NCBI RefSeq assembly: GCF_963921235.1 | Contig: NC_086097.1 | Location: forward strand, 9,548,001-9,612,000 | Direction: 5' to 3' | DNA length: 64,000 nt | DNA from: Mobula hypostoma | Taxonomy: Eukaryota | Shown here: in pieces, positions 1 to 60,180 of the stretch | Position numbering within the stretch: the stretch's first letter is position 1 | Layout of the letters: each line of letters begins with the position of its first letter | Notes under the pieces: generated by a model | What the model was told of the DNA's origin: nothing | Databases searched by the model: none | The model's input: the letters and a program-made list of their open reading frames with translations, nothing else | Program-made: the position numbers and the translations under genes

Positions 1-189
1 TCTGTTAAAATTAACAGTTTTTGTTTTTATTGTACCTCATGGAAATTTGTAATTCATAAAGCTTTAACGTTGGAGCAGTACATGGTGATAAATTAAAACT
101 CTGGAAGCATACTGGGTTTTTGGACAGAGGCAACAAATGCCCACTAGGATATTGGGTTCTACCTGACAGCTTTTGCAGAGTGGATTCCA

Positions 190-356
190 AGCAACACACA
201 CAAAATACTGGAGGAACTCAGCAGGCAAGGCATCATCTGTGGAAAAGATGCAACCAACGTTTGGGCCGAGACCCTTCAGTGGGACTGTCCTGGCCTGCTA
301 CGTTCCTCCAGCATTTTGTGTGCGTTGCTTGAATTTCCAGCATCTGCAGATTTTGT
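190..356. mobile_element. Short fold-back Penelope-derived non-autonomous repeat with degenerate hammerhead motif
   Basis: Inverted arms (acacacaaaatactggaggaac ... gttcctccagcattttgtgtg) enclose aacgtttgggccgagacccttc; same family as 4328-4924 and 13200-13322. Confidence 0.75.
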
Positions 357-1502
357 CTTGGCAGAATGGGTTCCAATGGGTGGGAAACCTGCTTTTGTCA
401 CTTTTATACCGTGAATACTTCTTATCATATCTGCCAAGAGATCTCCTGAAGGCCCAGGATGGGTATCAGAAGGGGTAATTGATCACGAAGCATTTTTCAT
501 CCTCTGTTCCTAGAGTAACAGAAGACAGAGTGCAACGAGATAGAAGTTTGGACTTTTCTAAACCCTTGCAAGTCTGAAAGTCAAGACCTGGAAGTCAATG
601 ACGCCGAGGGTGAATTCCTGACGCCTGTGAGTCTGAGAATCTGAGAATTGGGGCAGATGGACTTGAGGCCCAGAGGTGGCCTGTCCTAGGGCTGGAGCTC
701 TGTCTGGGTGTGTGCTAGAAAGGGAGGCAGGTGTGGGATAAGGGCTTGTTTTGTTGTCTCGTGTTGCTGGTTACTTGTGGTGATCTGTGGAATGTTGTGG
801 TATGCCACGTTGATGCCAAAATGTGTGATAACACTTGCAGGCTGCCTCCAGCGCATGCTTGGGTGTGTTGGCCCATTTCACTGTATATCTTGATGTCCAT
901 GTGATAAATAATTTTCAAATCTGAAGTCTGCATTATAGTTACAAAGCATGACAGAATAGTTTGACATTGGGAACAGGCCATTTGACCCGTCAACTTTCTG
1001 CCAGCTCTTTGTAAAGTATTTGAATTGGACTCATTTCTCTGCACCTTTCCTCCCCTCAAGTGGTGATCCATTTTCTTTCTGAATGTTCTGAATTGATCTC
1101 ATGACTTTTGATGAAGTTGTTTCTCCATCATCTTCCTGTGGACATCGGTCTTCCTATTGGAACAGTTCTCTCATTGCCATTTGTTCCAAGTTAGCATGAA
1201 GCCTTGGCCTAGCATGCTTCCCATAGGTAGAAAGTATATACAGTTTTGATCACCTACCTACAGGAAAGATGTAAATAACGTTGAAAGAGTGCAGAGAAAA
1301 TTTACAAGGATGTTGCCAGGTCAGGAGAACCCAAGTTATAAGGAAAGATTGAATAGCTAAGGACTTTATTCCTTGAAAAGTAGCAGATTGAGAGGAGGTT
1401 TGATAGAGGTTATACAAAATTAAGAGGAGTATAGATAGGGTAAGTGCAAGCAAGCTTTTCCAGTGAGGTTGGGCAGGACTACAATGAGAGAGTTCATGAG
1501 TT

Positions 1503-3850: not shown

Positions 3851-4417
3851 TTCAGTTAGATACTCTGGAAGTAATCTCCCTTTTTCCATCTCAGAGATAT
3901 ATGAGATGCCTCCATTTCAGTCAAGAGATCCTCACTTGTATATTTGTATGTAAATATGTAATTGTGTTTATGGATTGGTTATGGATATTTTCAGTCTTAT
4001 GGTTTTATATGCTGTGTTTTTGTCTGTTGTTGCTCATTGTTCTTTTTTGTATGGGGAGAGGGTTGATGTTCTTGTTGCATTTTGTTAGTTCTTTTTCTGT
4101 GCGAGGAGAGGGGTGGTTTGGGAAGGTCAACGTTTAGTTGTGTTTTGTGCAGGGGAGGGGTGTTTGGTGGGGGTTGATGATTAGCTGCTGTTCTTTTTTT
4201 CTGCAGCGGGGAGTGCATTTGCTGTTTCTCTTTGAATGACTTCCATGGTTTTCTTAGTTTCGTGACTACCTGGAGAAGACGAATCTCAGAGTTGTATATT
4301 GCATACATACTTCAATAATAAATGAACACAAAATAATCTGCAGATGCTGGGGTCAAAGCAACACTCACAACACGCTGGAGGAACTCAGCAGGTCGGGCAG
4401 CATCCTTGGAAAAGATT

Positions 4418-4454
4418 GGTCGACATTCCGGGCCGGAACCCTTCATCAGGACTG
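4418..4454 (-). ncRNA. Minimal type I hammerhead ribozyme motif (one core substitution, GAAA>GGAA)
   Basis: Minus strand reads CAGTC-CTGATGA-A-GGGTTCCGGCCC-GGAA-TGTC^GACC. Confidence 0.7.
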
Positions 4455-4745
4455 TAGAGGGAAGGGGCAGAGGCCTTATAAAGAAGATGGGGGGCGGGTG
4501 AGAAGGAGAAGGCTGGTAGGCTCCAGGTGGCGGAGATCACAGAAGGGGAGCAGTGAGAGAGGGTCTCACTGAACTCCCATCGAAGAGAAGATTTAAACTT
4601 CTTCAGGGTAGGCATACCTTGAAGAGACTTCGCAGCGGAGTAACGAATCATAAACACAAAATAATCTGCAGATGCTGGGGTCAAAGCAACACTCACAACA
4701 CGCTGGAGGAACTCAGCAAGTCGTGCAGCATCTGTGGAAAAGATC

Positions 4746-4777
4746 GGTCGACATTTCGGGCCAGAACCCTTCACCAG
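4746..4777 (-). ncRNA. Degenerate hammerhead motif (CTGGTGA; 5' arm of stem I truncated)
   Basis: Minus strand reads CTGGTGA-A-GGGTTCTGGCCC-GAAA-TGTC^GACC. Confidence 0.6.
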
Positions 4778-4835: not shown

Positions 4836-4872
4836 CAGTCCTGGCGAAGGGTTCCGGTCCGAAATGTCGACC
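4836..4872 (+). ncRNA. Degenerate hammerhead motif (CTGGCGA)
   Basis: CAGTC-CTGGCGA-A-GGGTTCCGGTCC-GAAA-TGTC^GACC. Confidence 0.6.
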
Positions 4873-6454
4873 GATCTTTTCCATGGATGCTGCCTGACCT
4901 GCTGAGTTCCTCCAGCGTGTTGTGAATAATAAATGAACCTTTGAACCGTTATGAGCATGTGGCATAATGAAGTAATTGTAATCTCATGAAAACACTTGGA
5001 GATATTTTCAAAGATTAGCTTTATTTGTCACATGTACAATGAAACATACAGTGGAATGCATCACTAAGTCACCAGGGATTGTGGTGGGCAAATGTTGTCA
5101 GGCTTCCCGCAACAGCATAACGTGCTCAAAACGCACTAACCTTAATCATACATTTTTAGAAATGTGGATGCAACTGGAACACCTGGAAGACACCCACTTA
5201 GCCTTGAGAAGGTTTTATTAAATTTTCAGACAGCGGAGGGAATTGTGTCCCAGTCTTACAGCTGATGCTCTAAAGCCTGGTGCTGACTGCTACACTACCA
5301 CATGCATTCTTCCCGAAAGAGTTAACATGTGATCTAAAGTACCAGGGCCTCCTTGAGCTTATCTAACACAGTACTCAGTAGCTCTAAGTTTGTGGCTCAG
5401 TGCTCACCTACCAATAATTACAATTGCTGTCAAGTAGTCAAAATAACTGACCTAGAAAAGGTTTGGTGTATTGTGAGGAAGGTCTTTGAAGAAATGGCTA
5501 CAGATCGATCTTTGAAAGCATTGACAGCTCCACATGGAGGAAGAGAGAAAGGCTGGCGCATCAATGTTTCAAAAGCCAGTGGTGCATATTGAATCAGTAA
5601 TTCTGTAGCTTCCCAGTAAGGCAGAGACAATTACATAAGGAGCAGTGATCGGTAGTACTGTGAGAGACGGGAAAAAAAAATGACAGTAACTGGATAAGGC
5701 ACAGGAGAATTAAATACAAAGAAAGATTAAACTTGATGCAGACAAGCCTTGATTTCAGCAGCATCACTGCCTAACAGGACTAAATGCAGAATGGATATAT
5801 AGGCAGCCCTGAAGCATACAATGGACAAAGTGAGTCACTCACAGTGCATATAATGAGAATGGAAATGTCTTTCATTGTAAAGAACTCTGAAAGTAGAGGA
5901 TGATATTGAAAATCTGTAGGCACAGTATGTTGCCAAAAGAAAGAATGAAAGAAGACTGTTCAATTGATGGAGATGAGTGCTGAGATTTATTGTATGCTTT
6001 CTAATCTAGCAGTCTCACAGAAAGTCAGAGATGTTCCAGACACAAATGGGAATCGTGGTTATTTCAATCAACAACCTTTCGAAGGATACCAGCTTGGCAC
6101 AAAAACAATGAAAGTGAGAAACAGTCAGTTAGCATAATGTTCCATTAAAGGTTGAACCGGTACCAAAATTTTGTTGATTACTTAAATTGTTGTGTTTGAC
6201 ATACATTTGTGTGTAGTTTAAAAGTTTGAACAGATTCTGTCCAAATTGTTAAGCACAGAAAGGTTTATATTTGACCTGACTTGCAAAATTACAACATTGA
6301 GAGAAAAAAAGCAGAAAAAAAATCCAGGGGACGTTGTTCTTCAAGACGGATAAACATGTCAACAGTTTATGGAGCATAGATATAGAACAGGATAGATCCT
6401 TCAGCCCACCACATTGTGCAGACAAATAAAACCTATTCCACAAACAGCCTAACC

Positions 6455-10966: not shown

Positions 10967-12818
10967 TTGCATAAGCAGTGCAAAAGGAGAGCAAAGAGAG
11001 AAATCTGATGGCCGAGGGGAAGAATCTGTAACTAAAACATTGAGTGTGTGCCTTCAGGCTTCTGTACCTTCTCTTTGATGGTAACAATGAGCAGAGGGCG
11101 TGTTCTGGGTGATAGAGGTCCTTAATGTTGGGTGGTGCCTTATTGAGGCCTCGCCTTTTGGAGGTGTTCTGGATGCTGGGGAGGGTTATGCCCATGATGG
11201 AGCTGGCTGAACTTACAATTTTCTGCAGCCTCATTGGATTCTGTGCATTGGCTCCTTCAAACCAGATGGTGATGCAACCTGTTGGAATACCCTCCATGCT
11301 ACGTCTGTAGATGTAACCATCTGTAAACATTACCAAGGGCACAGCTTGAGTAACGTACATAACATTCTTCATCACACTCTAGAAAGAATATGATTGCACT
11401 GGAGATGGGGAGAGGAGATTCACCAGAATGTTGTCTGGGATGGAGTGCATCAGTCAAGATTGGATAGCCTGTTTTGCTCCTTAGGGCAGACCAGGCCAAG
11501 GAGAGATCTGACAGAAGCATGCATAATTAGCTCAATAGCGATAGAGCTCAACTTATTGCAAGCTGTAGTTGTGTTGTTGCTGCACTTGTTGTGTACCATT
11601 GTGCTGAGACGATGCACAGTGTGAGTGACGGTCTTTGTCATTTTCATTGGGATTGCAAGACCTTGTTGGGAATCGCTAACATAGAATACTACATGTCCAG
11701 TTCACCTGTTCATTGTTGAGACCGGTGGTGGGACTGCTGCATTGCTTTGGTTTTTGTGAGGACTAGTCCTAGGCCGAGGCTGCAGTCACCTGTGGCAGTT
11801 GCCCAGGGGAGGAGATACCAAGGCAGTGCTGCCCTCTGGTGTTCACTCGGTGGAAGAACAAGCTGGACCAGGGCAAATTATCATCACAGGGACTTGGGTT
11901 ATATTATTATTTTCTCTCTCTCTCTCTTTGTGACTGTATGTTGTTTTTTTTTTCTGAAATTGTAACCATATGTGCTATTTGTGCTACGTGCTATGTGTAG
12001 TGTGCTTTTTTTTGCCACTGTATTTTGCACCAAGTCCCCAGAGGAATGTTGTTTCATTTGGCTGTATTCATGTATGGTTGAATGATAAATTAAACTTGAA
12101 CTTGAAAGGTGGGCTGCAGTAAACTCATCAACACATATCAACACCTCCACTGTTGAATCTCGTGACAGAAAGTGGTTTTGTGTGATTCTTGAGTGCAAAA
12201 TCAGCTAGCATCTGACAACCCCCCCCCACCCCTTGGAAAATTAAATATTGTGAGTCTCAAACTTTTCAGGTAGCACACTCCAGTTTCCAATACCAACCGG
12301 AATCCTAATCCCAATCTCTTACCCCTTAAACAAAGCTATACTCCATGTTCTTAGACATTCAGCTACAGGCAAACATTTCTCAAAATATTCAGTACATATT
12401 TAGATAAATAAACTTTCAAAAGTTAGACTGAATCAGTTAAGAGTCCAAATGTTAAAGTGCAACATATGATTAAAATTGTCCACTAATCAAGGATATTTGA
12501 AACAGTTTGAAAGTTCAAAGTAAATTTATTATCAAAGTACGTAAATGTCAGCATGTATAAGGCTGAGGTTTATTTTGCTGCAGCCATTCACAATAGAACA
12601 GAGAAGAACAATAGAATCAATGAAAAGCTACTCACGAAGATTGTCAATAATCAATCTGCTAAAGAAAAATTAATCTCAACTTTGGACTACGGGAGGAAAA
12701 AGGAAGCTGGAGTACCTGGAGGAAACCATCTGCAAAATAAAGCAAAATTGTAGCATCAAACTACTCATCCTTTGGTGATAAGTTCTGTGCTTTTCCTCAG
12801 AATCAGAATCAGGTTTAT

Positions 12819-13322
12819 CATTTTAATTCCAATTCCTATACCCATTCTGATGTGTTGGTCCATGGCCTCCTCTTTGGTCAAGATGAGGCCACCCTCAGTG
12901 TGGCGGGGCAACACCTTATATTCCACCTGGCGAGCCGCCAACCTGATGGCATCGATATTGATTGCTTCTTCCAGTAAAAAAATCCCCCCCCCATTCCTCT
13001 ATTCCCTACTCTGACCTTTCACCTATCCTCACCTACCTATTACTTCTCTTGTGTCCCCTCCTCCTTCCCCTTCTCCCATGGTCCACTCTGCTCCCCGATC
13101 AGATGACTTCTTTTCCAGCCCTTCACCTTTCCCACCCACCTGGTTTCACCTATCACGTTCTCGTTAGCCTCCTTCCCCTACCCCCACCTTCTTATTCTGA
13201 TATCTTCCCCCTTCCTTTCCAGTCCTGAAAAAGGGTCTCAGCATAAAACGTTGACTGTTTATTCATTTCCATAGATGCTGCCTGACCTGCTGTGTTTCTC
13301 CAGCATTTTGTGTGTGTGTTGT
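12819..13322 (+). mobile_element. Penelope-like element 3' end: GIY-YIG C-terminus plus pLTR with degenerate hammerhead
   Basis: 12819-12977 translates HFNSNSYTHSDVLVHGLLFGQDEATLSVAGQHLIFHLASRQPDGIDIDCFFQ*; cagtcctgaaaaagggtctcagcataaaacgttgactg at about 13220-13257; TSD tcaggttta (12809-12817 / 13323-13331). Confidence 0.8.
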
Positions 13323-14249
13323 TCAGGTTTAATATCATTGGCATATGTCATGAAATTTCTTGTTTTGTGACAGAACTGCATTGCAATACATAAATTTTAA
13401 AAAAGACTATAACATACAATAAATATATATTTATTAAATTAATTAAGTAGTGCAAAAAAGAGCAAAAAGAGAAAAAAAATCTGCTGTAGTGCACATTGAT
13501 TCATTGTCCATTCAGAAATCTGATGACAGATGGGAAGGAGCTGTTCCTGAAACATTGAGTGTGTGTCTTCAGGCTCCTGTACCTCCTCCTTGAAGGTATA
13601 AGTGAGAAGAGGAAGATTTTAAGAGTTATAGTTTACAAAGTTGTTGGAGATTAACTATGAAACATCATTTAGCTAGCTCCACATTTAAGTCTTGTAGAGT
13701 GCCACATTCTGCCACCAGATTCAATCACTGTGGTGTTGATATATCGGAGAAGTAGTGTTGATAGTGTTGAGAAGGTGGGGCAGTGGGACTAAATAGGATA
13801 AAATGGATCAGCTCATGATAAAATGGCAGAGCAGACTCAATGGGCCGAATGGCCTACTTCTGCTCCTTTGTCTTATGGTCTTATGGTCTTATAAATTTAG
13901 TACAAACAGCCTTGGAGAAGGGATTGGTGGGACAATAGCAGAACCAAAACACAAATCATAATTCACATCCACACAACTGACTGCACATTTGGATAAAGGC
14001 AAAGTGACAGGCAAAGACCAATGAACAAATGAGGGTCACTAAAGTGGGATGCTAGTGAGATAGCACAAATCTGAAATGTTAAACAACATATTCGTCAAAT
14101 TTGAGGGCATGCTATAAGAGTTCACATTGGCCAAGCAACAACAATGAGAGGTGTATTGGAAGAATTAGAAGAAAAATGTATTAGGAGATGCAAATAAGTG
14201 TTGAGTTCTCAGTGTGCTACACATTCTTCAGAACAAGAATTTACTATAA

Positions 14250-19547: not shown

Positions 19548-20574
19548 ACCATTTCACATGCACTGTCTCAGATCTCCACATTACAAGACCTTTGAATGTA
19601 CATCACTCTGTGCAGATCGTATGGGATGAGGAAGGACTGGGGAAGAAACTCATTGGATATATTTTACAGCCATCTATTCTTTTACATTCATTTATAGATA
19701 TTTGTAGTTTATTTCACAAGGGCATAATAATCTGATTAAAAAACACAATCTTAAAGAGTGCTAAGGAATAATTTATAAGCACTGCACAAGCCAAACCTTG
19801 GTAACGTTTTTCTGAAAATCCAATAAATTGAACATGCTGCAATCCTGAAAAGAAACAATGAAGGATTTTTATTTTCAAAATTTGAGTTGTTGTGTGCTGC
19901 CAATATATTCTATTCTCACTGAATATAATTGCTTATCCTGCTTTACTATGTGCTGTTTAGATACTTATTAAAAAGGAGAATAAAACCGAATCATGTCAGC
20001 TTGAACCTATTGAACAAGTAAACAAGGTATGTAGGGATTCCTCCCAAGAGGGCAAAATATGCTCATAAGCTACCCAAAGAATTTCACATAATACATTTCT
20101 CACTAGCAGCTCTCCCTCCAAGGAGTCACGATTTTACTTGGGGTTTGGCAGCAAGGCAGTGAGGTATACACATTGCTGTGACATTCAAACAGACGATCAT
20201 AAAATCCAAGCAATCCTGTGACTGAACAAGTCCAACAGACTTCTAATACTCTTCTGGAGTTTTCCTAAATACAGGCAAGGGGCCCAGGAAAATTGTCACT
20301 CTCTAATCAAATACATATTTGTAGTTTGACTGTTTGTGTGCTACTTAGATTTAAATACATCTTGAAGAAATCAGGAATTTTTAAGAGGTAAAGCTACAGA
20401 CTGGCAAAATCCCATGTACAACACACACAAAATGTTGGAGGAACTCAACAGGTCAGGCAGCATTTTTATGGAAGTCAATAAACAGTCGATGTTTCAAGTC
20501 AAGACCCTGCTTCAGGACTGGAAAGGAAGGGGGCAGAAGCAACAATAAGAAGTGCCCCTTCTTTTCCAATTTTA

Positions 20575-21160: not shown

Positions 21161-22601
21161 TTATATGCGTGTGTCGCTCTGGATTTTCAGCATCTAAAGA
21201 ATCTTGTATTTATAAAGTGACCTTTGTGTATACAAAATGGAACATATTCGCAAGCAACCAACGGACTAAATGGAAGAAATAAGACGTTTAAATATGTCAA
21301 CAATGCATCATCTTCCCCATTTGCCTATGTCAGGAACTAGTGGTAATTAGATCAAGCAATCTTCTCTAATAATGTGTTTCACTGGCACTATTTCGGATAA
21401 AATTTGACACAGCCATATAAAGGAGTGTCTTAATTGAGGAGAGATTAAAAGAGGGAATTCAAACCCAATTAAAAAATAACCAACCATGGAAAACTAAAAA
21501 TGAAAGTTCAAGTTCAGGTTTAACCATACAGATGAATTGAAACAAACAAAACGGTGTTCCTCTGGAACCATGACAAACCACAAGTCTATCATGAGCCTTA
21601 CGGCTTCCTGTATTCACTACGTGTTATCTTACTAGAGCCATTAATTCCTTGTGCTTTCAGGTTAATCTGGTCAATTTAATTGTGACTGGCAAACACAAAA
21701 ATATCTGCAGATGCTGGAAATCCAAGGTAAAACACACAAAATGCTGGAAGAACGCAGTAGGCCAAGCAGCATCTGTAGAAAGGAATGAACAGTTAACATC
21801 TTGAGCTGAGACCCTACACTATGACTGGAAATAAAGACGAGAAGTTTGAGGAAGGTGGTGGGGGGAGGGAAGGAAGAGGTACAAGGTGGTAGGTGTGAGG
21901 GAGTGGGAGAGAGAGAGAGCCTGTAGGATGTCAAAGTGTTGAGATGGAGAGTGATTTTTTTGAGGAACTTTAGATCATGGTCTCTAGGTGCTGGCTTGGT
22001 GGATGGTAGGTGTGGATTGTGCATTTGCTGCTGCTGGTGGGTGAGGTTCAAAGCTTCTGCTCTCTTTGGGGTGGGAGTTGGGGGGGCTTTGGGGTTCTAA
22101 TATTTTCTGTCATACATTCTTTGGGAATTTTCTTCTGTTTCATGGATGTCTGTGAAGAGTAAGAGTTTTAGGTTGTATACTGCACACACCCTCTGATATT
22201 AAACCCAACTACTGAACCAGTGAGTTGGCGTCAGTGATTCCTATGACAGAGAAAGCCTGCTGTTCTCTGTACCTGGGTCCTACTCTCTGAGAACACATGG
22301 TGATACAGTCACACACAGCACACAGCACATGGGCTATACAGTACATAAACAGTAGTAACAATGGCAGAAAAAAAAAGTCATAAAGAAATGGTCCAGCTCA
22401 AGTCCCAGAATGGCATGGCCTGTAGACTGATTGGGCAGAGGCTCAGGATAGATCTTTAGAGGTATTGACACTGCTCACCCACAATGCTGATCACTGCCAT
22501 TAGGTTGCCCCTCAGCCTCTGGGAGTGGGATTATTCGGAACGCACAGCCAGGGGAAGTGGTAGAAGCAGACACAATTTTGTCCAAAAGTCTTGGGCACAT
22601 A

Positions 22602-29715: not shown

Positions 29716-31007
29716 TCCCAGACTAGAACTAGAGGTAACTGGTGAAGGATAAGAGGTGAGATATTTAAGAAGAACCTGAGGGGGATTTGTTCACTCAGAA
29801 TGTGGTGCAAGTACGGAATAAGCAGAAGTGGTGGATGCAGATATGATTGCAACATTTAAGGGATGTTTGGTTAAATACAGGAAGAAGGCAGGAGATTGTG
29901 GCCATGTTGGAAAATGGATCAGCCATGGTGAAATGGCAGAGTGGACTTGATGTGCCAAATTACCTAATTCTGTTACTACATCTTTTAGTCTTATGGTCTA
30001 GATAGATGGGATTGGTATGGAGGGATTTGGTCCAGGACAAGGCAGAATAAAAGTTCAGGAGGACCAAATAGGCCTTGGGGTCTGTTTCTGTGCTGTAGTG
30101 CTCTTTGACTCAATGATTCAGAATTAAACTGGAGAATTGACACCTTCATTTAATTTTCGAATCTTCGTAGCCATGAATATCTCTCTCAGGTCTACCCAGT
30201 GTTTCACTCTTTAACAAAGTCTTACATCCCTGCTTTCTGAATAATTGTCTCTTTCATTGCATGTCCCTCAATTCTCCAGCATTTTAGGCAGGGGTAGGGC
30301 TAGAGATTATTCGAGCTGCAAGAGATGGCAGAGGTTGCACTCATAAGCAACACACAAAACATTGGAGGAGCTCAGCAAGTCAGGCAGCATCTGAGGAAGG
30401 AAGTAGACAGTTGATATTTGAGGTCAAAGCTTTCACCTGGATTACCGTCCATTTCCCTCCATTGTTCTGCCTGATCCATTGAGTTACTCGCTGTGTTTTA
30501 TTTATTTTATCCTATTTAGAGATAACGTGTGGAAAAGGCCTTTCGGACCCAAGGAGCCACACCTATTTAACCCTAGCCTAATCACGGGACAACTTAGAAT
30601 AACAATTAACTCATGTCTTTGGAATGTGGGAGTAAATTAGAGCTCCAAGAAGAAACCCATGCAGTCACGGGAAAGGCATACAAACTTCCTCCAGAGGACT
30701 ACGGAATTGAGCTCCAAACTCTGAGCTGCAATAACATCACATTAACCACGAGCCGTGGTACCAATGTTGTACCAGAGATTTATTTTGCATCATCTGGGTA
30801 CCACCTACACGTGGATACAAGTATAATTGCTGATTAGCATCTCCATCTCTTCCAACACTGCATAAAAACCTCATATTTACATATTTGCATATGATTTTAT
30901 TTGGCACTTCCTGAATTATTCCAATGAGTTCAAGTGGGTTATCACGCGGCAGAGCAAAATGCTAGAGCAACTTAGCAGGTCAGGCAACATCTATGGAAAT
31001 GAATAAA

Positions 31008-31045
31008 CAATCGATGTTTCGGGTCAAGACCCTTCTTCAGGCCTG
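31008..31045 (-). ncRNA. Minimal type I hammerhead motif, core intact, weak stem I
   Basis: CAGGC-CTGAAGA-A-GGGT-CTTG-ACCC-GAAA-CATC^GATTG within a PLE-derived repeat. Confidence 0.6.
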
Positions 31046-32213
31046 GAAAGGAAGGGGGAAGACTCCAGAATAAAAAGGTGGGGGGGCAGGGGAAGGAGGA
31101 GGATAGCAAGAAGGTGATAAGTGAAGTCAGCTGGGCAGGAAAGATATGTCTTGATGAAGGGTCTCGGCCTGATACCTTCCACTGGTAATGCCTGACCTAC
31201 TCATCTTCTCCAACACATTGTTCTATATTTCCGGCATCTGCAGTGCCTCTTGTGTCTAAGAAAGTTAAAGGGCTGGAGTAGAAGGAATCTGAATGGACCA
31301 CAGGAGAAAGGGAAGGAGGAGGGGATCCAGGCAGAGGTGATAGGCAGGTGAGAAGAGGTAAGAGGCTGAGTCAATTATTGTTCAACAATCTTTTAAAGAT
31401 CTGAAAGGAGTCACCCGACATGGAATTAATCAGGCATTTCACTGAAATAGGATGATAGTATCTGAAATTATAAAATGAGTGCAATTGCAAATGAGAACCT
31501 TTGAAATGGACAAATACAATTAAAAATGAAAGTGCAAAATGACATATGCTTGCCCTTTGAAGTCTCATCCATACATATGAGACAGATGAAAATGATTTAT
31601 GAGTTGTACAGAGCATTTGAAGTGTAACTATTCTAATTAAACCTCCTATTTAGAATGTACAGGACACAACACCATTGCAGTTTTCAAGTGGGAATAAAAA
31701 TGCACAAGACAGGGCACGATTGTAGTCCTCATGGAGTTAAGAATGCACAGAACAGATTGGAGTCCTCATGAGCAGGTACAAAGCCCAGAAAAGTATAATC
31801 ATCTGGTCACTATATAACCTGTCTGGGAGACTGCACAACAGAACTCTTTTACGATATATGCTTCGGACTGATTAAAATGATGACTTTTTTTTTGGTGGCT
31901 ATTAAGAGTAGCCATATTAGAAATGGGACAAGTTCAAAGTACGTAGTCATTTTATTTTCCTGCTGGTCTTTGGGCAATACTGTATTTGCATATGGAAAAT
32001 ACAAACAAGATTACATTTATAGTTATTCCATTTTAGCTGGTTTTCGAGATGAACAAAGTCTTGTAATCTGCTGAGCAAAACTGTAATCAAGTTAAACAGT
32101 TCTCATCATAACATTGGCAATTAATGCAAGATAAAGTAATTAATTTGGATCCAGAAACCCTATCTACGGAGTCTGATTGAAACTTATTCATCTAAATGAA
32201 GTTTTTCTACTTA

Positions 32214-34730: not shown

Positions 34731-35160
34731 AGAGAGAGAGGAGGAGGTAGACAGAGGGAGAGGAAGATGGAGAGGGAGAGGTAGAGTGAGAGGGAGAAAG
34801 AGAGTGAGAGGGAGATAGAGGGAGAGAGGGGAGAGGTGAGGGAGAGAAGGATAGAGAAGGACAGAGAGAGGGTAGGGTATAGGGAGGGTGAGGTAAGGGA
34901 GGCACAAGGGACAGAAATAGGAAGAGGGTGGGGGAGGGATAGAATATAGAGAGGGAGGGAGATGGAGTGGAGAAGAAGAGAGAAAGGGAGACGGTACAGG
35001 GATGGAGGGAGAGAAGGAGAGGGGATGGGGTGAGAGAGCAGGGTGTGGGGATGCAGGGGGTGAAGGAGAGGGTGTGGGGAGGGAGTGGGAGAGGTGGAGG
35101 GGAAGGGAGAGGGAGTGGGTGGAGAGGGGGAGAGAGAGAGAGAGAGGGGGGGGGTGGAGA
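34731..35160. repeat. About 430-bp polypurine (G/A) low-complexity tract
   Basis: Nearly pure G/A on the + strand. Confidence 0.95.
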
Positions 35161-35546
35161 AAGACAACAAGATATTCTACAAATGCAGTCATACCTCGAA
35201 GAGACTTTGCAGTGGAACCGCAAATCAGATATTTTAGCATCTACAGAATCTCTTGTGTTTATGCTCCATTATGAAGTCTCATCAAGGTATGTCTATCATG
35301 AAGTTTAAATCTTCTCTTTGACAAGAGTTCAGTAGGCTCTCTCTCATTGCTCCCACTCAGTGATCTCTGCCACTCCTGAATTCTTCAACTCTGTGCTTAC
35401 CCAGGCTCGCTTAACTTATCGCTTTCCAGCTTGTATTCCTTCCCCTCCCGCACCCTCCTCAACCATCTTATTCTGGCTACACTCTCTCTTCCTTTCTAAT
35501 CCTGAAGTAGGGTCTCAGCCCAGAGTCTTGTCATCTTCAGAAGTTT

Positions 35547-38658: not shown

Positions 38659-39554
38659 ACATTTATTTTTCAACAGAGTCCCCTCCTACATTTACACACT
38701 TAGTCCAGCGGTCGTGGAGCATACGGATCTTGGACCTCCAGAAAGTGCCCACAGCAGGGGTGATTGATAAGTTTGTGGCCTAAGGTAGAAGGGGATGAGT
38801 TATACAGCTCTCGTTACATGCACATGCAGTTCAACTCTTTGAGTGATTATGCAGAAAGTTTGAAGTTAATAACTCATCTCCTTCTACCTTAACTACCTTC
38901 TACTATGCTGAAAAATAAATGGGCTAGGTTTTCTAAAATTGACTCCTTCTACCTTAGGCCACAAACTTATCAATCACCCCTCGTATGTGCAATATGGACG
39001 TCTAAGAATTTTACACAGTACTGTGTAAATGTGGAGCAGAGAGTGAGTCTGTAAACTTGGTGGGAGAAGAGGATGTTGGGAATGGCGAGGATGGAGCACC
39101 GTGGGAGGGGTGTGGGACAGGTAGCAGAGAAGTTGGCCAAGGACAGGAAGTGGCGCAGATACAGACACACCCAGGCCTGAGACACCAGGCAAGGCCATTT
39201 GATTCCAAACAATTGGTTTATTGATCATTACAGAATGTCTCTCTGGTGCTTTCCATTGCCTCCCCCTCCCTTCTCCTTTTTCCAACCATGATTCCCCTCT
39301 CCCTGCCTCTCCCCACCCCCCATCCACAATAAAGACCCATATCAGAATCAGTATTACAATACTGTGCAAATGTTTTAGACTTCTAGTAAAATACAAAAAT
39401 TGTAGGTACATCAATCATGTTCCTATGAATGTCCTTCTCTCTTCTCCAGACTCTTTTCATAAGTGAAACTCTTATCCCAGAAAACACCTTGATGACACAC
39501 ACAAAATGCTGAAGGAACTCAGCAAACCAGGCAGCATAAATGGAAAAGAATAAA

Positions 39555-39592
39555 CAGTCTACATTTCGGGCCGAGACCCTTCTTCAGAACTG
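39555..39592 (-). ncRNA. Minimal type I hammerhead motif, core intact
   Basis: CAGTT-CTGAAGA-A-GGGT-CTCG-GCCC-GAAA-TGTA^GACTG; 5-bp stem I including one G-U pair; GUA triplet. Confidence 0.7.
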
Positions 39593-39950
39593 GAAGCGGA
39601 AGGGGAAGAAGTCAGAATAAGAAGGTGTGGGAGGGGAGAAAGAAGTGCAAGGTGGCAGGTGATTGGTGAAACCAGGCAAGGGGGATGGGCGATGTAAAGA
39701 ACTGGGAAGCTGATTAGTGAAAGGGACACCTCTGCACCCTCCAGCACTACAAATGCCTTCAATCCACAGATCTTTTAAGACCTCAACTACATTCCATTTA
39801 ATCATACTTGTGATTTAAAATTCAAAATCAAACTTGAGTTTTTGTCTCACTTTAGATAAAATTTTCATATTGAGAAAAATATCAATGAATCTGTAGCCCT
39901 CTGTATAATGTGCAGGCAAAGATTTTCATTTCATATTCTTTATCTGATCA

Positions 39951-43786: not shown

Positions 43787-45201
43787 TGGGGCGAGTGAAG
43801 TTGAGTGAAGTTACCCTCACTGGTTCAAGAGCCTGATGACTGAGAGGTAGTAACTATTCCTGAACCTGGTGGTGTGAGTTGTGAGGCTCTAGTACCTTCT
43901 TCCTGATGGTAGCAGTGAGAAGAGAACATGATCACTGATGATGGATGATTGCTGGTGGGATCGCTCTGCTGCTGGAGAGGAGAGAGGTCGCCGCTGTGCC
44001 CGGAAGATGTTAATCAGGTTTTCTGCTTTTTGGCTATGGACTTTTTCAGTCATAGTTTCTTATATTCTGTGATTTCACTGATCCTTCTTGCCTTTTTTGT
44101 TTGTGGGGGCGGGAGACTTGGCGGCTGACGAGCCTGTTCCATTTTTGTTCTTGTTTTTGGTGTGGGGAGTGGGGATTTGGGGGTTAATGCCGTGCTTAGT
44201 TTTCTTTTCTTTCTTGGTTTCCTGGCTCTCTGGAGAAGAAGAACTGCAGAGCTGATAACAAGTAAACCTTTGAACGTTTGATGCTGCTTTCCTGCAACAC
44301 AACTATGCTTCATGTGAACGTGCTCAATTGTGAAGAGAGCTTTAAAAGACCCATGATGGACTGGGCCATATCTACTACATTTTGTAGGATTTTCCAATTA
44401 AAAACATTGGTGTATTTTTTTTATTTTGTCTGCTTAGAATATTTAGAACCTACTTAAAAATATTCCTTTGAAGTTCAAAGTAAGTTTATTATCAGAGTAT
44501 GCATATGCCACCATATACAACCATGAGATTCATTTTCTTGCAGGCATTCAGAGTAGAACAAATGAAATACAATAGAATCAATGAAAAACTACACACAGAC
44601 TGAAAAACAATGTGCACGAAAAGGCAAACTATGCAATATTAAATAATAATATTCTTTTTATTTTCAAAGTGATAATGATAATAAATACATAAATATCGTT
44701 AAGAACATGAGTTGCAGAGTACTTGAAAGTGAGCCCATATAGATTGTGATTCAGTTCAGTGAAGTTATCCACACTTTAGTGCACAGAATAACAATTTCAA
44801 TACAATTCTAATACTTTCCATGCTAAAGATGAAGTAATTCAAAAGTTTAAAGTTTATGTAAATCATTCAATAGTCAAAACACTCGGGGCCTATGTTGGCT
44901 TTGCAAATGCAAATTTACATCAATCTACAGATCATTCAAACAAATGCCTCTCACCTCCTGACCCATTTGTTAGCCTGAGGTGTTAACATGGAGCCCGTCT
45001 ATAATTGACGCATCTGCTGTCATTTAGTGAGAGGGAATGTGTCAGAAAGGAATTTTGACACTGCTGCCAGGTGTATGCTTTTGACCTGGCCAATGCTTAG
45101 GAGATCATACTAATACAATATGATTGTATTTTCTGTGCAAGACAATGTGTGTGGAAAGCAAACCTTCTGCTGTTCTTCCATAGTAACATCACACATAATA
45201 T

Positions 45202-45235
45202 GTCCTGACGAAGGGTCTCGGCCCGAAACGTCGAC
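45202..45235 (+). ncRNA. Minimal type I hammerhead motif, consensus core
   Basis: GTC-CTGACGA-A-GGGT-CTCG-GCCC-GAAA-CGTC^GAC; palindromic ACGT stem III; starts a PLE-derived fragment running to about 45325. Confidence 0.75.
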
Positions 45236-45371
45236 TTCCTAGAGATGCTGCCTGGCCTGCTGTGTTCACCAGCAACTTTTATATGTGTTGCTTGAAATTC
45301 CAAGAGCCGCAGATTTCCTCTTGTACACAAAGTAGAAGGTTGACTGATTCTACGTTAGTTCAAAGTAAAAT

Positions 45372-45665
45372 TTATTTATTTATTTATTGAGGTACAGAGC
45401 AGAGTAGGCCCTTCCAGCCCTTTGAGCTGGGCCGCCTAGCAATCTCCTGATTTAATACTAGCCTAATCATGGGACAAATTCCAATGACCAACTAAGCTAC
45501 CAACTGGTATGTCTTTGGACTGTGGGAGGAAACCAGAGCACTCAGAGGAGCACTACACAGTCACGGGGAGAATGGACAAATTCCTCACGGGCAGTGATGG
45601 GAATTGAACCTGGGTTGCTTGCTGCTGTAAAGCACTGTGCTAACCACTACGTTACCCTGCTCCCC
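45372..45665 (-). mobile_element. tRNA-derived V-SINE-like element (others at about 5010-5300, 28008-28280, 30500-30760, 53900-54150)
   Basis: Minus strand has A-box tagtggttagc, B-box ggttcaattcc, ggtttcctcccacagtccaaagac domain and an (aaat)n tail. Confidence 0.8.
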
Positions 45666-47615: not shown

Positions 47616-49899
47616 CCATATACAACCTTTGAGTTCATCTTTCAGGCTCCCACTGGAAAGTAGAGAAACACAATAGAATCTAGGAAGAACCAAACATAAC
47701 GAAGGCCGAGTCCTTGAAATTGAGTCTACAAGCTATGCAGTCAGTTCAGCACTGAGGGGAGAGAAGCCAACAAGGCTGGACCTGGAGACCAGTGGTTTCA
47801 GAGTGACAACCGTTCCTGAATCTGTTCCTGCACCTCTCACCTGATGACAGTAGAAAGAAGAGAGGGAGACAGGTCAAACACAGGTAGTCAGGATGAGCCC
47901 ATGTGGGGAACCTTGGCTGGCAGGGAGTGATGGAGCTGAATGCCAGTTTGTTTTCCGCTGTAGGGTCTCAACGCTTTAATTTGGCTTGAAGCTCTCAAGC
48001 TCTCAAGTTCTCCCAGTGATGGCTAACCTTTGTCAAGGTGTTGCAACTGCATTCCTAATTATTTCATATTTCTTTCAATTTACAAACTTTTTTCATTTAT
48101 GCCTCAAGCTAGCTGCAGGTAATTAAGCAAATCCAAAACAAATTACATAATAGAGGAGTGGTGTTCTTTAAACAGGATATTTTTAAAAATAAACAATGCA
48201 TTTATGAAATAGAAATTAATAAATTCTCAGGAATTTTCACTGACATCACAAGCCAATTTCAGCAGATCTAAACATTTCAAAAATAAATATGTACGTTTGT
48301 AACCATTCTCTGAATTTCTCAAAGAACCTCTGCATAGGAATCATCCTCGTCTATCTTTAATTATACTGTGGAAACTTTGCTTTGAATGTCATAGTTAGTT
48401 TGATTCAATGTCACTCATGTTCATATCAGTACTGATTAATGGAAGTTTATCAAGTGATTTCTGGCAGTCATGACTATTAGACAGACCTGCATTATGGACC
48501 TGCTCCTAATAATTAATTCCATTCATGTTTTAAATCTACTTGTGGAAACCATTTGACATTATGTTAAGACACAAGAGGTACTGCAGATGCTGGAAATCTA
48601 GAACAATGTACACAATGTGCTGGAGGAGCTCAGCAGGTCAGGCAGCATCTATGGATGGGAAGAAACAATCGACGTTTCGGGCCAAGACTTGTTTTTCCCA
48701 TTCATAGATGCTGCCTGACTTGCTGAGCTCCTACTGACATTATTTTAAATTCATGGTGGTTATATGAGGTGTCAAGGGAGGGATAGCACCTCTGGTGAAG
48801 GGGTTTGTCACATCCAATCTGGGGCAGGTCACTCAGCTTTGGTCCCCACCAGACATTCAGCTTCTACCTATGGCCCCAAGGAGCTGTTTGCATGCGACAG
48901 CAGCCTTACCCAGGGGCACCATTTCGACAGGAGAGTTAAGCCAGGTGAGGATAGCCAGCAGGCTTCATGTCCTGGTGAGATAGGGGCATAACTGTCTCAG
49001 CATTCAAAGTCAGCTCTGGCAGACTGGGTGGTTGAGATCTACAGTGAGATCCAATGGCCAGGAAGCTGGTTCTGCAATGCTCTGTGGAGAGTGAAGGGCA
49101 GGACAAGGCACAGAAGGAGTCATCCTCTGTAACCAAGCGAGACCTCAGTTGTGATACCAGTGGACCCAGACTTTCAAGGTCAAGGGAGTGAAACTGCCCC
49201 AGCAAAATAGCATTTCCACTCTAAAAACTCTCCCGCACAGGTTTCCTGTCATTGTTTGAAAATAACGGACAACCACCAAATCCATGTTAAAGAGGGTTGA
49301 GCAACACACATCAAAGTTGCTGGTGAACGCAGCAGGCCAAGCAGCATCTGTAGGAAGAGGTGCAGTCGACGTTTCAGGCCGTCATGTTTCTGGTACCAGT
49401 TCAGGATTAATTATTAACCCTCGACCATCAGGTCTTAAACCAGTGGAGATAACCTCACGCAACTTCACCTTCCACATCACTTACCATAGATGTTCCCACA
49501 ATCTATGGTTTCCCTTTTAAGGATTTGTCATCTCATGTTCTCAATATTTAATGCTTACTTATTTATTAATTTATATTTTTCTCTTTTCTATTTACACAGC
49601 GTGTTGTCTTCTGTACAGCATTTGCTTGTCTGCCCTGCTGGCTGCAGTCTTTCATTGTTTCTGATATGGATTTTGGATCTACTGAGTACGGCTGTAGGAA
49701 AACACATCTCGGTGACATATATGTACTTTGATAATAAATACACTTCAAACTTTTGAACGTTGACTCTATTGGGAAAAAATTTAAGAAAATAGTCCTAGAA
49801 TTTGAAATAGTACCCACTAACATCTTGAAAACTTCACTCAGTTCTATCTTAAACAATCTGGATGTAGGGAGTTTTGTAGCTTGTACACTCTCCCTGAAA

Positions 49900-58320: not shown

Positions 58321-60180
58321 AATAGGGGGAGGTTTGATGCTTTGCTGCTGCTTGTGCATGAGACTGAGGAGAGGGGCTTTGTGGTTTGAATGTTTTTCTA
58401 TCATTCTTTCTTTGGGGTTTTCTTCTGTTTTGAGGATGTCTGTGAAGAATAAGAATTTCAGGTTGTATACTGTATACACTCTCTGATATTAAATGAAACC
58501 ATTGAACCTATAATTAGTGAAATGAAAGGTCACACAGTTATTAAAACTCAAAGAGTTTCCCAAAGCTCCTCGAAGAGATCTTTTATATCTTGAGGCAATC
58601 TATTCCCATTTCCTTACCAGATGATGGATAAAAAGTATTGGGCCAAGTAGTCTGTGGCATCCTTTCGATGGAAGTAAGTAGACAATTGTCCTGTTGATCT
58701 GAGACCCTCAATATGAACAGAAAAATAAAGGGAGATAGCCAGTATAATAAGGTAAAGAGAAGAGTTGGAGCAAGAACTGACTAGGTCAACAAATGATAAA
58801 CGCAAGAGTTTCTGCAGATGCTGGAATTCTAGAGTAAGACGTATAAAATACAGGAGGAACTCAGCAGGTCAGGAAGCATCTATAGAAATGTTGCCTGACC
58901 TGAAGAGTTACACTGATGTGTTACAAGTGAGGAAGGTAAAAAACAGATGGAAGAAGGAAGAGTGGAAATTGAAACAGAGGCTGGAAGGTGACGGGTGGAG
59001 GGACAAAGGGCTGCATTTGAAAGAATCTCATAGGAAAAGACGATGGAGTGTGGAAACAAATAAGGGAGGCATGGTGTGTGACGGGAATATTGACAGGAGG
59101 GGACTCGATAGGAAGAGGATGAGGATGAAGTGGGCGGTGGAGAGAAAAGAAATATAGTGATAGACAGCTGGGATGAGTGGTGGGATGGGCACTGGAAAAT
59201 CTGTGTAGATCACAAAAGTTCAAAGTTCAAAGTAAAATTTATTATTAAAGTACATACACATCACCACATATAACCCTGAGATTCTTTCTCTGCGGGCATA
59301 CTTAGCAAATCTATAGAGCAGTAACAGTAACCAGGATCTGTAAACTGTAAACAAACTGTGCAAATGTAGATAATAAATCATAGCAATAAATAATGAGCAT
59401 TAACTACCAAGATAAAAAAGAATCCTTAATGAGTGTAGTTATCCCCTTTTGTTCAAGAGCCTGATGGTTGAGGGGTAGCATCTGTTCTTGAACCTGGTTG
59501 TGCAAGTTCTGATGGTAGCAGTGAGAAGAAACCATGGCCTGAGTGGTGAGGACCTTTGATGATGAACAGAGAGACAAGATAATAAATGGGAAGCAGGTTA
59601 CCTGAAAATACAAAATTCAATGTTCATGCCTTGCTGTGTGAAAACATGCTCCAGGGCTCGGTGAAAGGGGTCAAATGGCATTCACTATCAGTAAGTAAGT
59701 TACCCATTTATTTTCAGGACAAGATCAACACTAAACATTCAAATTACATTCAGTTACAAATACTTAGCTGAAGTGTGTGCTCAGAGCTTCTCTCACTGCA
59801 TCACACTTCCCCTGTTTCCATGGCACCATCCGTGACCTGGTCCAAGGTGACCCTGAGAGGAAAGGACCAAGTGCTTTCACCATACTAGACTTATACTCTA
59901 TCTGTGCCATGACATCATCAGCCAGTATGTGGTCTCAAAATGCACCCAGTGGGAGGCTGCTGTGTTCTTTAAACAAGCCAGTCCCTGGTTAGCACGGTGG
60001 AGTGACTTGCGATAAACTGGTAAAATGGATACTTAATGCTACATCATGCCATCATGTTGTAGACAATCTAGGTACTAATTTTCATTTCACCCCACCCGAA
60101 CAGTGCAGGATGCCGAGGACAGAGTGATTAGCAAGGCAATGAGGAGGCGGATAACAAAGGAGCAGGTTGTGGATTAAAGG

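What the first reader, a model, noticed from the sequence alone, without database searches (positions are those of the whole stretch)
45202..45235. High-copy family of minimal type I hammerhead ribozyme motifs, several with intact cores
Seen: about 15 dispersed copies (near 255, 4418, 4746, 4836, 13220, 20483, 21790, 30408, 31008, 31148, 35500, 39555, 45202, 48668, 49364) share CAGTC-CTGANGA-A-GGGT-4nt-RCCC-GAAA-CGTC^GACTG. Stem I is CAGTC/GACTG, stem II keeps GGG/CCC while its loop varies (CTCG, CTTG, TCCG), and stem III is the palindrome ACGT. Cores are intact at 45202, 39555 and 31008. Established: CUGANGA, GAAA and NUH form the hammerhead core; Penelope-like elements carry minimal type I hammerheads thought to cleave as dimers; an extra A after A9 occurs in natural hammerheads. 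Inference: this genome holds a very large ribozyme reservoir, and copies inside introns could cut nascent RNA. I cannot tell whether this family is already catalogued.
Basis: partly seen in the sequence, partly recalled or inferred. Interest (0 to 1): 0.75.

Follow-up and report, generated by a model that had tools for sequence, protein, structure and literature searches.

The report
Penelope-element minimal hammerheads in a ray genome
The repeats are mostly dead tail-end fragments of Penelope-like jumping genes, each carrying the small hammerhead self-cutting RNA motif already known from such elements; the kind is ordinary, though this cartilaginous-fish genome holds an unusually large number of them.

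Summary
Intact core nucleotides occur at exactly the three places named.

The repeat is the 3' end of an endonuclease-bearing Penelope-like element (PLE). The motif lies about 300 nt downstream of a decayed RT plus GIY-YIG reading frame. Copies are 5'-truncated, and 13 of 30 carry the optional 35-40-nt PLE "tail". Many lie as head-to-head inverted pairs.

The motif fits the "min-HHR" of metazoan PLEs (Cervera & De la Peña 2014). Genome-wide, 89,846 motifs keep CUGANGA...GAAACGUC, against 284 for the reversed control. The largest group, 56,233 copies, has G10.1•U11.1 in place of G10.1-C11.1.

None of the window's 12 motif-spanning copies keeps the whole architecture. Decay is mainly CpG loss. 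No compensatory pair changes were found, and Rfam gives no match. Cleavage, and any cutting of host transcripts, remain untested.

The same kind was noted earlier in this scan on other shark DNA. Verdict: a new member of a known kind, of modest interest.

The parts
45201..45324 (+). PLE 3'-end fragment, young C-type subfamily. It is 5'-truncated exactly at GTC-CUGA. The hammerhead motif is at 45202-45235 with an intact core and ACGU palindrome, but stem I is only 3 bp. The copy extends into the tail region, which has decayed.
   Evidence: 0 mismatches; E=2.6e-35
39457..39684 (-). PLE 3'-end fragment, B-type. Core nucleotides are intact, stem I 5 bp, stem II 4 bp. The palindrome has decayed to AUGU, and position H17 is A.
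30955..31133 (-). PLE 3'-end fragment, B-type. Core nucleotides are intact; the palindrome has decayed to ACAU; stem I has mismatches. It lies head to head with the fragment at 31148-31217 (+).
31148..31217 (+). Decayed PLE fragment. The core reads TTGATGA...GATA and is broken.
12741..12974 (+). Remnant of the C-terminal GIY-YIG endonuclease reading frame of the PLE copy whose hammerhead lies at 13222.
   Evidence: 48% identity over 71 aa to the endonuclease end of L047, E=1e-20
13132..13350 (+). PLE 3' region, B-type. The core has decayed (CTGAAAA, GCAT AAAA).
4323..4454 (-). PLE fragment, A-type. G12-A13 has decayed (GGAA) and the palindrome reads ATGT. It includes the tail box.
4648..4777 (-). 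PLE fragment, A-type. The core has decayed (CTGGTGA). It lies head to head with 4836-4927.
   Evidence: I2
4836..4927 (+). PLE fragment, A-type. The core has decayed (CTGGCGA).
178..286 (-). Decayed PLE fragment. It lies head to head with the tail-only arm at 289-367 (+).
   Evidence: I4
289..367 (+). Tail-region arm of the inverted pair. It carries no hammerhead.
20411..20520 (-). Decayed PLE fragment, B-type (CTGAAGC, ACAT).
21689..21909 (-). Decayed PLE 3' region. The core is lost.
30327..30444 (-). Decayed PLE fragment of the hairpin type. The core is lost.
35444..35522 (+). PLE fragment that breaks off inside stem II.
48567..48732 (-). Short head-to-head pair forming a 41-nt-arm hairpin. 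The minus arm starts inside the hammerhead and lacks CUGANGA.
   Evidence: -77.4 kcal/mol, z=-11.5; I5
49292..49381 (-). PLE fragment, C-type, 5'-truncated inside the hammerhead.
   Evidence: E=1.8e-26
58798..58887 (-). Tail-region fragment without a hammerhead. A short inverted arm follows at 58883-58911.

Best explanation
The family consists of the 3'-terminal parts of endonuclease-bearing Penelope-like retrotransposons (PLEs) of a cartilaginous fish, probably a myliobatiform ray.

Anatomy (shown):
- Each element ends with a conserved module of about 105-145 nt.
- The module starts with a minimal type I hammerhead: stem I 5 bp, CUGANGA, an unpaired A, a 4-bp stem II with a 4-nt loop, GAAA, then a 1-bp stem III within the palindrome ACGU, with cleavage expected after GUC.
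- A conserved box follows (GAUGCUGCC...GUGUUGC), then an optional tail of 35-40 nt.
- Copies are 5'-truncated and often lie as head-to-head inverted pairs.
- The window's copies are dead relics losing the motif mainly at its five CpG sites.

Mechanism (inferred from published PLE work):
- Copies arise by target-primed reverse transcription from one of two start sites near the RNA 3' end.
- Priming can occur on both cut DNA strands, which would give the inverted pairs.
- In the element's own transcripts the hammerhead pairs with a second copy through the ACGU palindrome, or is helped by the element's protein, and trims the retrotransposon RNA.
For: Link to a PLE:
- The motif lies about 300 nt downstream of a frame with the YIDD reverse-transcriptase motif followed by GIY-YIG.
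- Pfam RVT_1 scores E=2.7e-6 on L032.
- GIY-YIG scores E=2e-4 to 3e-3 in 4 separate copies.
- Homologue P0001 has RVT_1 above its cut-off, followed by a weak GIY-YIG match. P0031 has GIY-YIG above its cut-off.
- Inside the window, an endonuclease remnant lies upstream of the 13222 copy.

Retroposon behaviour:
- The left ends of homology among 30 loci vary from about 100 to about 1,500 nt upstream, while the right ends are shared.
- 13 of 30 copies carry the tail box and 17 do not.
- Of 22 neighbouring motif pairs within 4 kb, 15 are -/+ (head to head), 3 are +/- and 4 are same-strand (P=2.5e-5).
- These features match passages of PMC11167929: an optional 30-40-bp tail, two start sites for reverse transcription, and both DNA strands cut and extended.

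Fit to the min-HHR:
- The motif has the extra nucleotide after A9, a palindromic 15.2-16.2 and a short helix I, as described in PMC4209133.
- Among 35 unselected copies, non-CpG core columns are 0.91 conserved. The upstream flank is 0.81, N7 is 0.53 and non-CpG loop II columns are 0.81.

Abundance: 89,846 genome matches against 284 for the reversed control.
Against: - Self-cleavage was not tested here.
- No compensatory base-pair change supports stems I or II. 0 of 10 pairs changed on both sides, and shuffled controls score as high.
- The box downstream of the motif is nearly as conserved as the motif (0.84 against 0.91). Conservation alone therefore cannot separate ribozyme function from a reverse-transcriptase recognition role.
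- The commonest group (56,233 copies) lacks the G10.1-C11.1 pair that PMC4209133 calls highly conserved.
- Stem II is 4 bp. The Schistosoma min-HHRs have 7-8 bp.
- The canonical pLTR-ORF-pLTR tandem form was not seen in any of the 6 long copies examined.
- Pfam hits on the decayed copies themselves are all just below the curated cut-offs.
- Rfam finds no hammerhead even at E<=10.
- Thermodynamic folding of monomers pairs G5-G8 with CGUC rather than forming a hammerhead.
Confidence: 0.9

Rival explanations
1. Many of the short copies are not truncated autonomous elements. They would be a non-autonomous, SINE- or retrozyme-like family that borrows the PLE 3' module and is mobilised in trans.
For: - Most copies are only 90-250 nt long.
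- Subfamilies A and B share a C-rich leader that differs from the C-type 3' UTR.
- A 2026 preprint argues that animal retrozymes derive from PLE terminal repeats. It reports tandem retrozymes in its one chondrichthyan genome (passages).
Against: - The 5' ends are spread continuously rather than falling at one fixed start.
- Homology runs on into the RT/endonuclease frame in C-type copies and in the B-type copy in the window.
- The window holds no tandem arrays of the unit.
- In 22 neighbouring pairs, same-strand pairs are rare (4 of 22).
Confidence: 0.15
2. The motif descends from a hammerhead but is catalytically idle in this lineage. It would be kept only as part of the structured 3' module that the element's protein recognises.
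For: - No compensatory changes were found.
- The most prolific group has G•U at 10.1-11.1.
- The neighbouring non-ribozyme box is almost as conserved as the motif.
- In PMC11167929 (passages), hammerhead mutants did not affect insertion in vitro. That paper found no RNA-seq reads ending at the cleavage site.
- Cleavage in vitro is low in PMC4209133.
Against: - Variation falls where a hammerhead tolerates it: N7, loop II, wobble changes and the distal part of stem I. The 12 core positions and the extra A are the best kept.
- PMC11167929 did see protein-assisted cleavage that followed the C3/G8 mutant logic.
- A G•U wobble still closes helix II.
Confidence: 0.2
3. Dispersed copies have been taken over by the host and cut nascent host transcripts.
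For: PLEs are reported to be enriched in whale-shark introns (bioRxiv 10.1101/443036, passages). Tens of thousands of motif-intact copies exist.
Against: - 0 of 12 window copies keep the full architecture.
- Decay follows the CpG pattern expected of unconstrained DNA.
- Pairs are inverted, so one transcript carries one sense motif plus its complement. That favours a long hairpin rather than a double hammerhead.
- Min-HHRs do not cleave as monomers (PMC4209133).
Confidence: 0.03

Closest known systems
Minimal hammerheads (min-HHR) of metazoan Penelope-like elements (Cervera & De la Peña 2014, PMC4209133; main text parts 1-2 read)
   Same: - Type I topology and a short helix I (5 bp).
- An unpaired nucleotide between A9 and 10.1.
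- Helix III reduced to A15.1-U16.1 within a palindrome.
- Massive dispersed occurrence as single motifs.
- Dual motifs lying close together on opposite strands.
- Association with RT/GIY-YIG elements.
   Different: - Helix II is 4 bp, against the 7-8 bp of the Schistosoma families.
- The commonest group has G10.1•U11.1.
- The count of about 90,000 motif-intact copies is some ten times the 4,000 (coelacanth) and 9,000 (Xenopus) that paper called remarkable. The search descriptors differ, so the comparison is rough.
- Cartilaginous fishes are not mentioned in that paper (0 occurrences).
Poseidon element PAc of Anolis carolinensis (PMC11167929; passages read)
   Same: - An optional tail of about 30-40 bp that marks two start sites for reverse transcription.
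- Head-to-head copies, as expected if both cut DNA strands are extended.
- A hammerhead in the terminal repeat.
   Different: - In PAc the reading frame starts inside the hammerhead. Here the motif lies about 300 nt downstream of the stop codon of the preceding frame, and its relation to a downstream frame was not seen.
- No biochemistry was done here.
Non-LTR retrozymes of animals (PMC7229834, listing and start of abstract only; bioRxiv 10.64898/2026.07.22.740005, passages)
   Same: Type I hammerheads with a weak, palindromic stem III. The preprint proposes that they derive from PLE terminal repeats.
   Different: Retrozymes are tandem arrays that give circular RNAs. Here the copies are dispersed or inverted, with no tandem arrays in the window and few same-strand neighbours.
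Rfam Hammerhead_1 and the other curated hammerhead models
   Same: The same catalytic boxes.
   Different: No match at the gathering score or at E<=10. I attribute this to the near-absent stem III, which is my inference.

Membership tests
min-HHR of metazoan PLEs | Catalytic boxes CUGANGA and GAAA, with cleavage after NUH | tested here: met
   Intact in 3 of 12 window copies and in 16 of 35 unselected copies. There are 89,846 genome matches to CTGANGA-N10-18-GAAACGTC, against 284 for the reversed control.
min-HHR of metazoan PLEs | Type I topology with a short helix I (4-5 bp) | tested here: met
   The pairing is UAGUC/GACUG or CAGUC/GACUG. 85.9% of cells are paired in 31 copies.
min-HHR of metazoan PLEs | Unpaired nucleotide between A9 and 10.1 | tested here: met
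   The A column has conservation 1.00 among the unselected copies that have a letter there (34 of 35).
min-HHR of metazoan PLEs | Conserved G10.1-C11.1 pair | tested here: inconclusive
   G-C in 18,752 copies, but G•U in 56,233. Among 31 sampled copies: GC 14, GU 13, other 3, gap 1.
min-HHR of metazoan PLEs | Helix III absent or 1 bp, with palindromic 15.2-16.2 | tested here: met
   A-CG-U is in the consensus. It is kept in 4 of 12 window copies and decays to TG or CA in the rest.
min-HHR of metazoan PLEs | Long helix II (7-8 bp, as described for the Schistosoma families) | tested here: not met
   Here helix II is 4 bp (GGGU/RCCC) with a 4-nt loop. The source paper describes this trait for particular families, so it may not define the class.
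min-HHR of metazoan PLEs | Consensus families with covariation and compensatory changes | tested here: not met
   0 of 10 pairs changed on both sides. All variation is one-sided: GC/GU, UG/UA and UG/CG.
min-HHR of metazoan PLEs | Self-cleavage as a dimer | not testable with these tools
   Cofolding gives domain-swapped duplexes and cannot model the tertiary fold.
Penelope-like elements (endonuclease-bearing) | One reading frame with a reverse transcriptase followed by a C-terminal GIY-YIG endonuclease | tested here: met
   The YIDD motif is followed by GIY-YIG in the same decayed frame series. RVT_1 scores E=2.7e-6. GIY-YIG scores E=2e-4 to 3e-3 in 4 copies, all just under the cut-offs. Homologue P0001 has RVT_1 at 34.5 bits (above the cut-off) plus a weak GIY-YIG match. 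P0031 has GIY-YIG at 25.5 bits (above the cut-off).
Penelope-like elements (endonuclease-bearing) | Optional 30-40-bp 3' tail present in a fraction of copies | tested here: met
   13 of 30 loci carry the tail box and 17 of 30 lack it, most of those ending near GTGTGTTGC.
Penelope-like elements (endonuclease-bearing) | Terminal repeats flanking the frame (pLTR-ORF-pLTR tandem form) | tested here: not met
   Not seen in the 6 long copies examined. They are 5'-truncated and mostly head to head. The one +/+ pair looked at (L033) is two separate fragments. The sample is very small.
Non-LTR retrozymes | Head-to-tail tandem arrays of the hammerhead unit | tested here: not met
   No such array appears among the 9 tandem-repeat rows for the window. 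4 of 22 close neighbours are on the same strand.
Rfam hammerhead families | Match to a curated covariance model | tested here: not met
   0 matches at the gathering score. No hammerhead match at E<=10 on the whole window or on 45170-45270 alone.

The most novel reading that the evidence does not exclude
The youngest and most prolific lineage carries G10.1•U11.1 where hammerheads almost always have G10.1-C11.1. It counts at least 56,233 motif-intact copies, three times the G-C form, and has less CpG loss at N7 (89.8% against 77.1% still C). If the wobble weakens cleavage, this genome is a natural experiment. It would show that large-scale PLE amplification does not depend on efficient hammerhead catalysis, as one in-vitro study of a lizard element suggested. 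With about 90,000 intact motifs, the genome would also be among the largest hammerhead reservoirs reported.
Probability: 0.25. Interest if true: 0.5.

Novelty: new member of a known kind. Interest (0 to 1): 0.3.

Why it matters
The class has been known since 2014, so the finding opens no new question. Three points are useful.
- It extends PLE hammerheads to a ray genome at very high copy number.
- It offers two abundant natural variants, C11.1 and U11.1, for testing whether the ribozyme matters for PLE spread.
- It shows that the many head-to-head pairs form long hairpins, which can be mistaken for microRNA precursors.

Fragments of the PLE reading frame also sit inside public ray gene models under host-gene names.

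Tried and rejected
- **Rfam.** No hammerhead match at the gathering score or at E<=10, on the whole window or on a 101-nt slice.
- **Covariation.** A count on 31 copies gave no compensatory changes. RNAalifold on the downstream box gave only a weak hairpin with no covariation.
- **Folding.** The monomer minimum-energy fold pairs GACG (G5-G8) with CGUC. The dimer fold swaps stem II between the two strands. Neither reproduces a hammerhead, so folding says little.
- **Expression.** No RNA holder was listed among the 22 runs. All runs are kept as contigs, which cannot show RNA ends, and the laying reported no places where molecules begin or end. Cleavage in vivo is therefore untested.
- **Canonical tandem form.** L033, the one direct pair examined, is two separate truncated fragments.
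- **Larger genome sample.** I worked with 140 kb of arbitrary loci plus the window.
- **Lünse et al.** The paper on PLE hammerheads cleaving as dimers (PMC5785218) is not held. I know it only from its citation in PMC6765202.
- **G•U at 10.1-11.1.** A literature search found nothing useful.
- **Host gene.** Long reading frames in the window gave only transposon domains, so the intronic context is not established.

Full report
**1. The observation**

At 45202-45235 the plus strand reads GTC-CTGACGA-A-GGGTCTCGGCCC-GAAA-CGTC-GAC.

- The loose hammerhead pattern CTGANGA-N13-GAAA occurs three times in the window, at 45205+, 39587- and 31040-. That compares with 0.33 expected, and 1 of 100 shuffles reached three.
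- The 28-nt family pattern with up to three mismatches occurs six times, against 0.00 expected.
- blastn of 45001-45400 against the window finds 15 further places that share the roughly 120 nt starting at the motif.
- A profile built from 15 genomic copies finds 21 hits at E<=1 in the window.

Three corrections apply.
- Only 12 of the 15 span the whole motif. 48688- and 49381- begin inside it, and 35444+ ends inside stem II.
- Core nucleotides are intact at exactly the three places named, but none of the three keeps the whole architecture. The 45202 copy is truncated at GTC and has a small deletion after GAC, leaving 3 bp of stem I. 39590- and 31041- have lost the ACGU palindrome to AUGU and ACAU.
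- CAGTC/GACTG is the stem I of one subfamily. The youngest subfamily has TAGTC/GACTG.

**2. What the repeat is**

The window lies in a 3.48-Gb assembly. Thirty 3-kb loci around exact motif matches show that homology always ends at the same right-hand positions. On the left it reaches variable distances, from a few nucleotides to more than 1.4 kb. This is the pattern of a 5'-truncated retroposon.

The longer copies carry a decayed reading frame upstream of the motif.
- The frame has a YIDD reverse-transcriptase motif followed by a GIY-YIG endonuclease. Its stop codon lies about 300 nt before the motif.
- On these decayed copies Pfam gives RVT_1 at E=2.7e-6. It gives GIY-YIG at E=2e-4 to 3e-3 in four separate copies. 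All of these are just under the curated cut-offs.
- Database relatives of the frame include P0001, which has RVT_1 above its cut-off followed by a weak GIY-YIG match. P0031 has GIY-YIG above its cut-off.
- Reverse transcriptase followed by GIY-YIG in one frame is the hallmark of endonuclease-bearing Penelope-like elements. That statement is established knowledge, and it is also given in passages of PMC6765202 and of the 2026 preprint.
- Inside the window, 12741-12974 encodes a remnant of the endonuclease end, upstream of the 13222 copy (E=1e-20).

The best named protein relatives come from rays and skates, followed by a shark. Identities are 95% for Mobula hypostoma, 65-81% for Hypanus sabinus and 53% for Chiloscyllium. 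Earlier notes of this scan on the same genome also call it a cartilaginous fish.

**3. Further PLE signatures**

- 13 of the 30 loci carry a tail box about 20 nt beyond GTGTGTTGC. The other 17 lack it, and most of those end at that point. This matches the optional 30-40-bp 'tail' that marks two reverse-transcription start sites in the lizard element PAc (PMC11167929, passages).
- Copies very often lie head to head.
  - Among the first 100 motif places listed on contig 1, 22 neighbouring pairs lie within 4 kb. Of these, 15 are -/+, 3 are +/- and 4 are same-strand (binomial P=2.5e-5).
  - 6 of the 30 loci have an inverted motif arm within 200 nt upstream.
  - Long copies in L031, L032, L034, L035, L043 and L048 are paired in the same way.
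  - The window has three such loci, at 188-331, 4365-4925 and 48624-48732.
- The same paper reports that the PAc protein cuts and extends both DNA strands, which would give such pairs. That link is my inference.
- The canonical pLTR-ORF-pLTR tandem form was not seen in my small sample. The one direct pair I examined is two separate fragments.

**4. The motif as a hammerhead**

Its features match the min-HHR of metazoan PLEs as defined in PMC4209133 (main text read). These are a type I topology, a helix I of 5 bp, an unpaired A after A9, and helix III reduced to A15.1-U16.1 within the palindrome ACGU.

It differs in two ways.
- Helix II is short, at 4 bp.
- In most copies the pair at 10.1-11.1 is not G-C.

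Genome counts:

| Pattern | Matches |
|---|---|
| CTGANGA-N10-18-GAAACGTC | 89,846 (reversed control 284) |
| ...RCCC-GAAA (C11.1) | 18,752 |
| ...RCCT-GAAA (U11.1) | 56,233 |

- The U11.1 group keeps the CpG at N7-G8 more often: 50,475 of 56,233, or 89.8%. The C11.1 group keeps it in 14,466 of 18,752, or 77.1%. This suggests the U11.1 group is younger on average.
- U11.1 travels with other diagnostic substitutions. I therefore read it as a change in a master copy rather than as independent decay.
- Contigs of four organisms' runs hold the family. Within the core, the only position varying in at least 20% of depth is 11.1. The share of C there is 18%, 24%, 40% and 67%. Depth from contigs is a poor measure, so this is only a weak hint.

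**5. Constraint and decay**

Among 35 copies not selected for the motif (the window, 140 kb of arbitrary loci and locus flanks), 16 keep the core nucleotides. Ten keep the core, both stems and the palindrome.

Column conservation among these 35 copies:

| Region | Conservation |
|---|---|
| Non-CpG core positions | 0.91 |
| Non-CpG stem II positions | 0.91 |
| Extra A | 1.00 |
| Upstream flank | 0.81 |
| Spacer | 0.75 |
| Non-CpG loop II positions | 0.81 |
| N7 | 0.53 |
| Downstream box | 0.84 |

- The margin is modest, and the neighbouring box is conserved too (alignment).
- Base-pair counts on 31 copies show 90.2% of cells paired. No pair changed on both sides, and shuffles score as high. 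Within this genome the fold is therefore supported by motif identity and by homology to PLE hammerheads, not by covariation.
- The motif holds five CpGs. Most lesions in old copies are CG to TG or CA, as expected for unconstrained, methylated vertebrate DNA.

**6. Abundance**

- The profile finds 17 copies in the 64-kb window and 18 in 140 kb of arbitrary loci. Extrapolated, that is several hundred thousand fragments genome-wide, which is a rough figure.
- PMC4209133 called 4,000 (coelacanth) and 9,000 (Xenopus) min-HHRs remarkable. The search descriptors differ, so the comparison is rough.

**7. Function**

- Nothing here shows cleavage.
- Published min-HHRs do not cleave as monomers and cleave poorly as dimers (PMC4209133).
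- The PAc hammerhead needed the element's protein. Its mutants did not affect insertion in vitro (PMC11167929, passages).
- Monomer folding of natural copies pairs G5-G8 with CGUC, a possible inactive state. This is a thermodynamic prediction only.
- In inverted pairs a single transcript holds one sense motif and its complement. For example, 48600-48740 folds into a hairpin of -77.4 kcal/mol with z=-11.5.
- The idea that intronic copies cut host RNA therefore has no support from this window.

**8. Novelty**

- The kind has been known since 2014.
- PLE expansion in shark introns is in print (bioRxiv 10.1101/443036, passages). PLEs are reported in all vertebrate lineages (PMC4350176, passages).
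- I found no description of hammerheads in cartilaginous-fish PLEs.
  - Cervera 2014 has 0 occurrences of shark-related words.
  - Two literature searches turned up none (4 papers, 109 papers with 25 listed). I read passages from three of these papers and only titles and abstract starts for the rest.
  - The 2026 preprint reports tandem retrozymes in one chondrichthyan, and its supplements could not be seen.
- Earlier notes of this scan describe the same kind in other shark genomes. I did not test those notes.

Noticed in passing
window:48600-48740 (-): A short head-to-head PLE pair folds into a near-perfect hairpin (-77.4 kcal/mol, z=-11.5). It gave a weak, spurious match to a plant microRNA family (MIR1507, E=0.0023). 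Such pairs could be mistaken for microRNA precursors, or could feed double-stranded-RNA pathways.
   Followed up: partly
window:39548-39598 (-) and 31001-31046 (-): The two CpG-decay products of the ACGU palindrome, AUGU and ACAU, are complementary to each other. Two decayed copies on the same strand could therefore still form a 4-bp intermolecular helix III. This is pure inference.
   Followed up: no
L047:7994-8039, L043:1703-1748, window:45197-45242: The monomer minimum-energy folds pair G5-A6-C7-G8 with C15.2-G16.2-U16.1-C17. This alternative helix would hide both the core and the cleavage site, and it depends on N7 being C.
   Followed up: partly
window:1500-3140 (+): An open 547-aa frame with a strong reverse-transcriptase domain (RVT_1, E=8.7e-35), probably a LINE. 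Further reverse-transcriptase fragments lie at 33422-33967 and 43296-43805.
   Followed up: no
window:37023-38669 (-) and 35778-36254 (+): A 549-aa open frame has a weak zf-RVT match. A 159-aa frame matches the ALKBH8 N-terminal domain (PF09004, E=3e-12), which is probably a transposon-borne domain.
   Followed up: no
window:57094-57152 and 34731-35160: GA/CT-rich simple repeats. The first forms a (GA)n/(CT)n hairpin that gives spurious weak microRNA matches.
   Followed up: no
proteins P0002, P0005, P0018, P0026, P0041: Public ray and skate gene models with host-gene names contain stretches 61-76% identical to this PLE frame. The names include 'mucin-2 isoform X2', 'divergent protein kinase domain 1C', 'receptor-transporting protein 3-like', 'chitinase domain-containing protein 1' and 'neuromedin-U receptor 1'. 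Transposon sequence has probably been taken into these models.
   Followed up: no
L035:8463-9733, L043:1663-3642, L048:2731-3967: Long head-to-head PLE pairs are joined at their truncated 5' ends, with arms of 0.6-1.2 kb. These are the same structure as the short hairpins, at a larger scale.
   Followed up: partly
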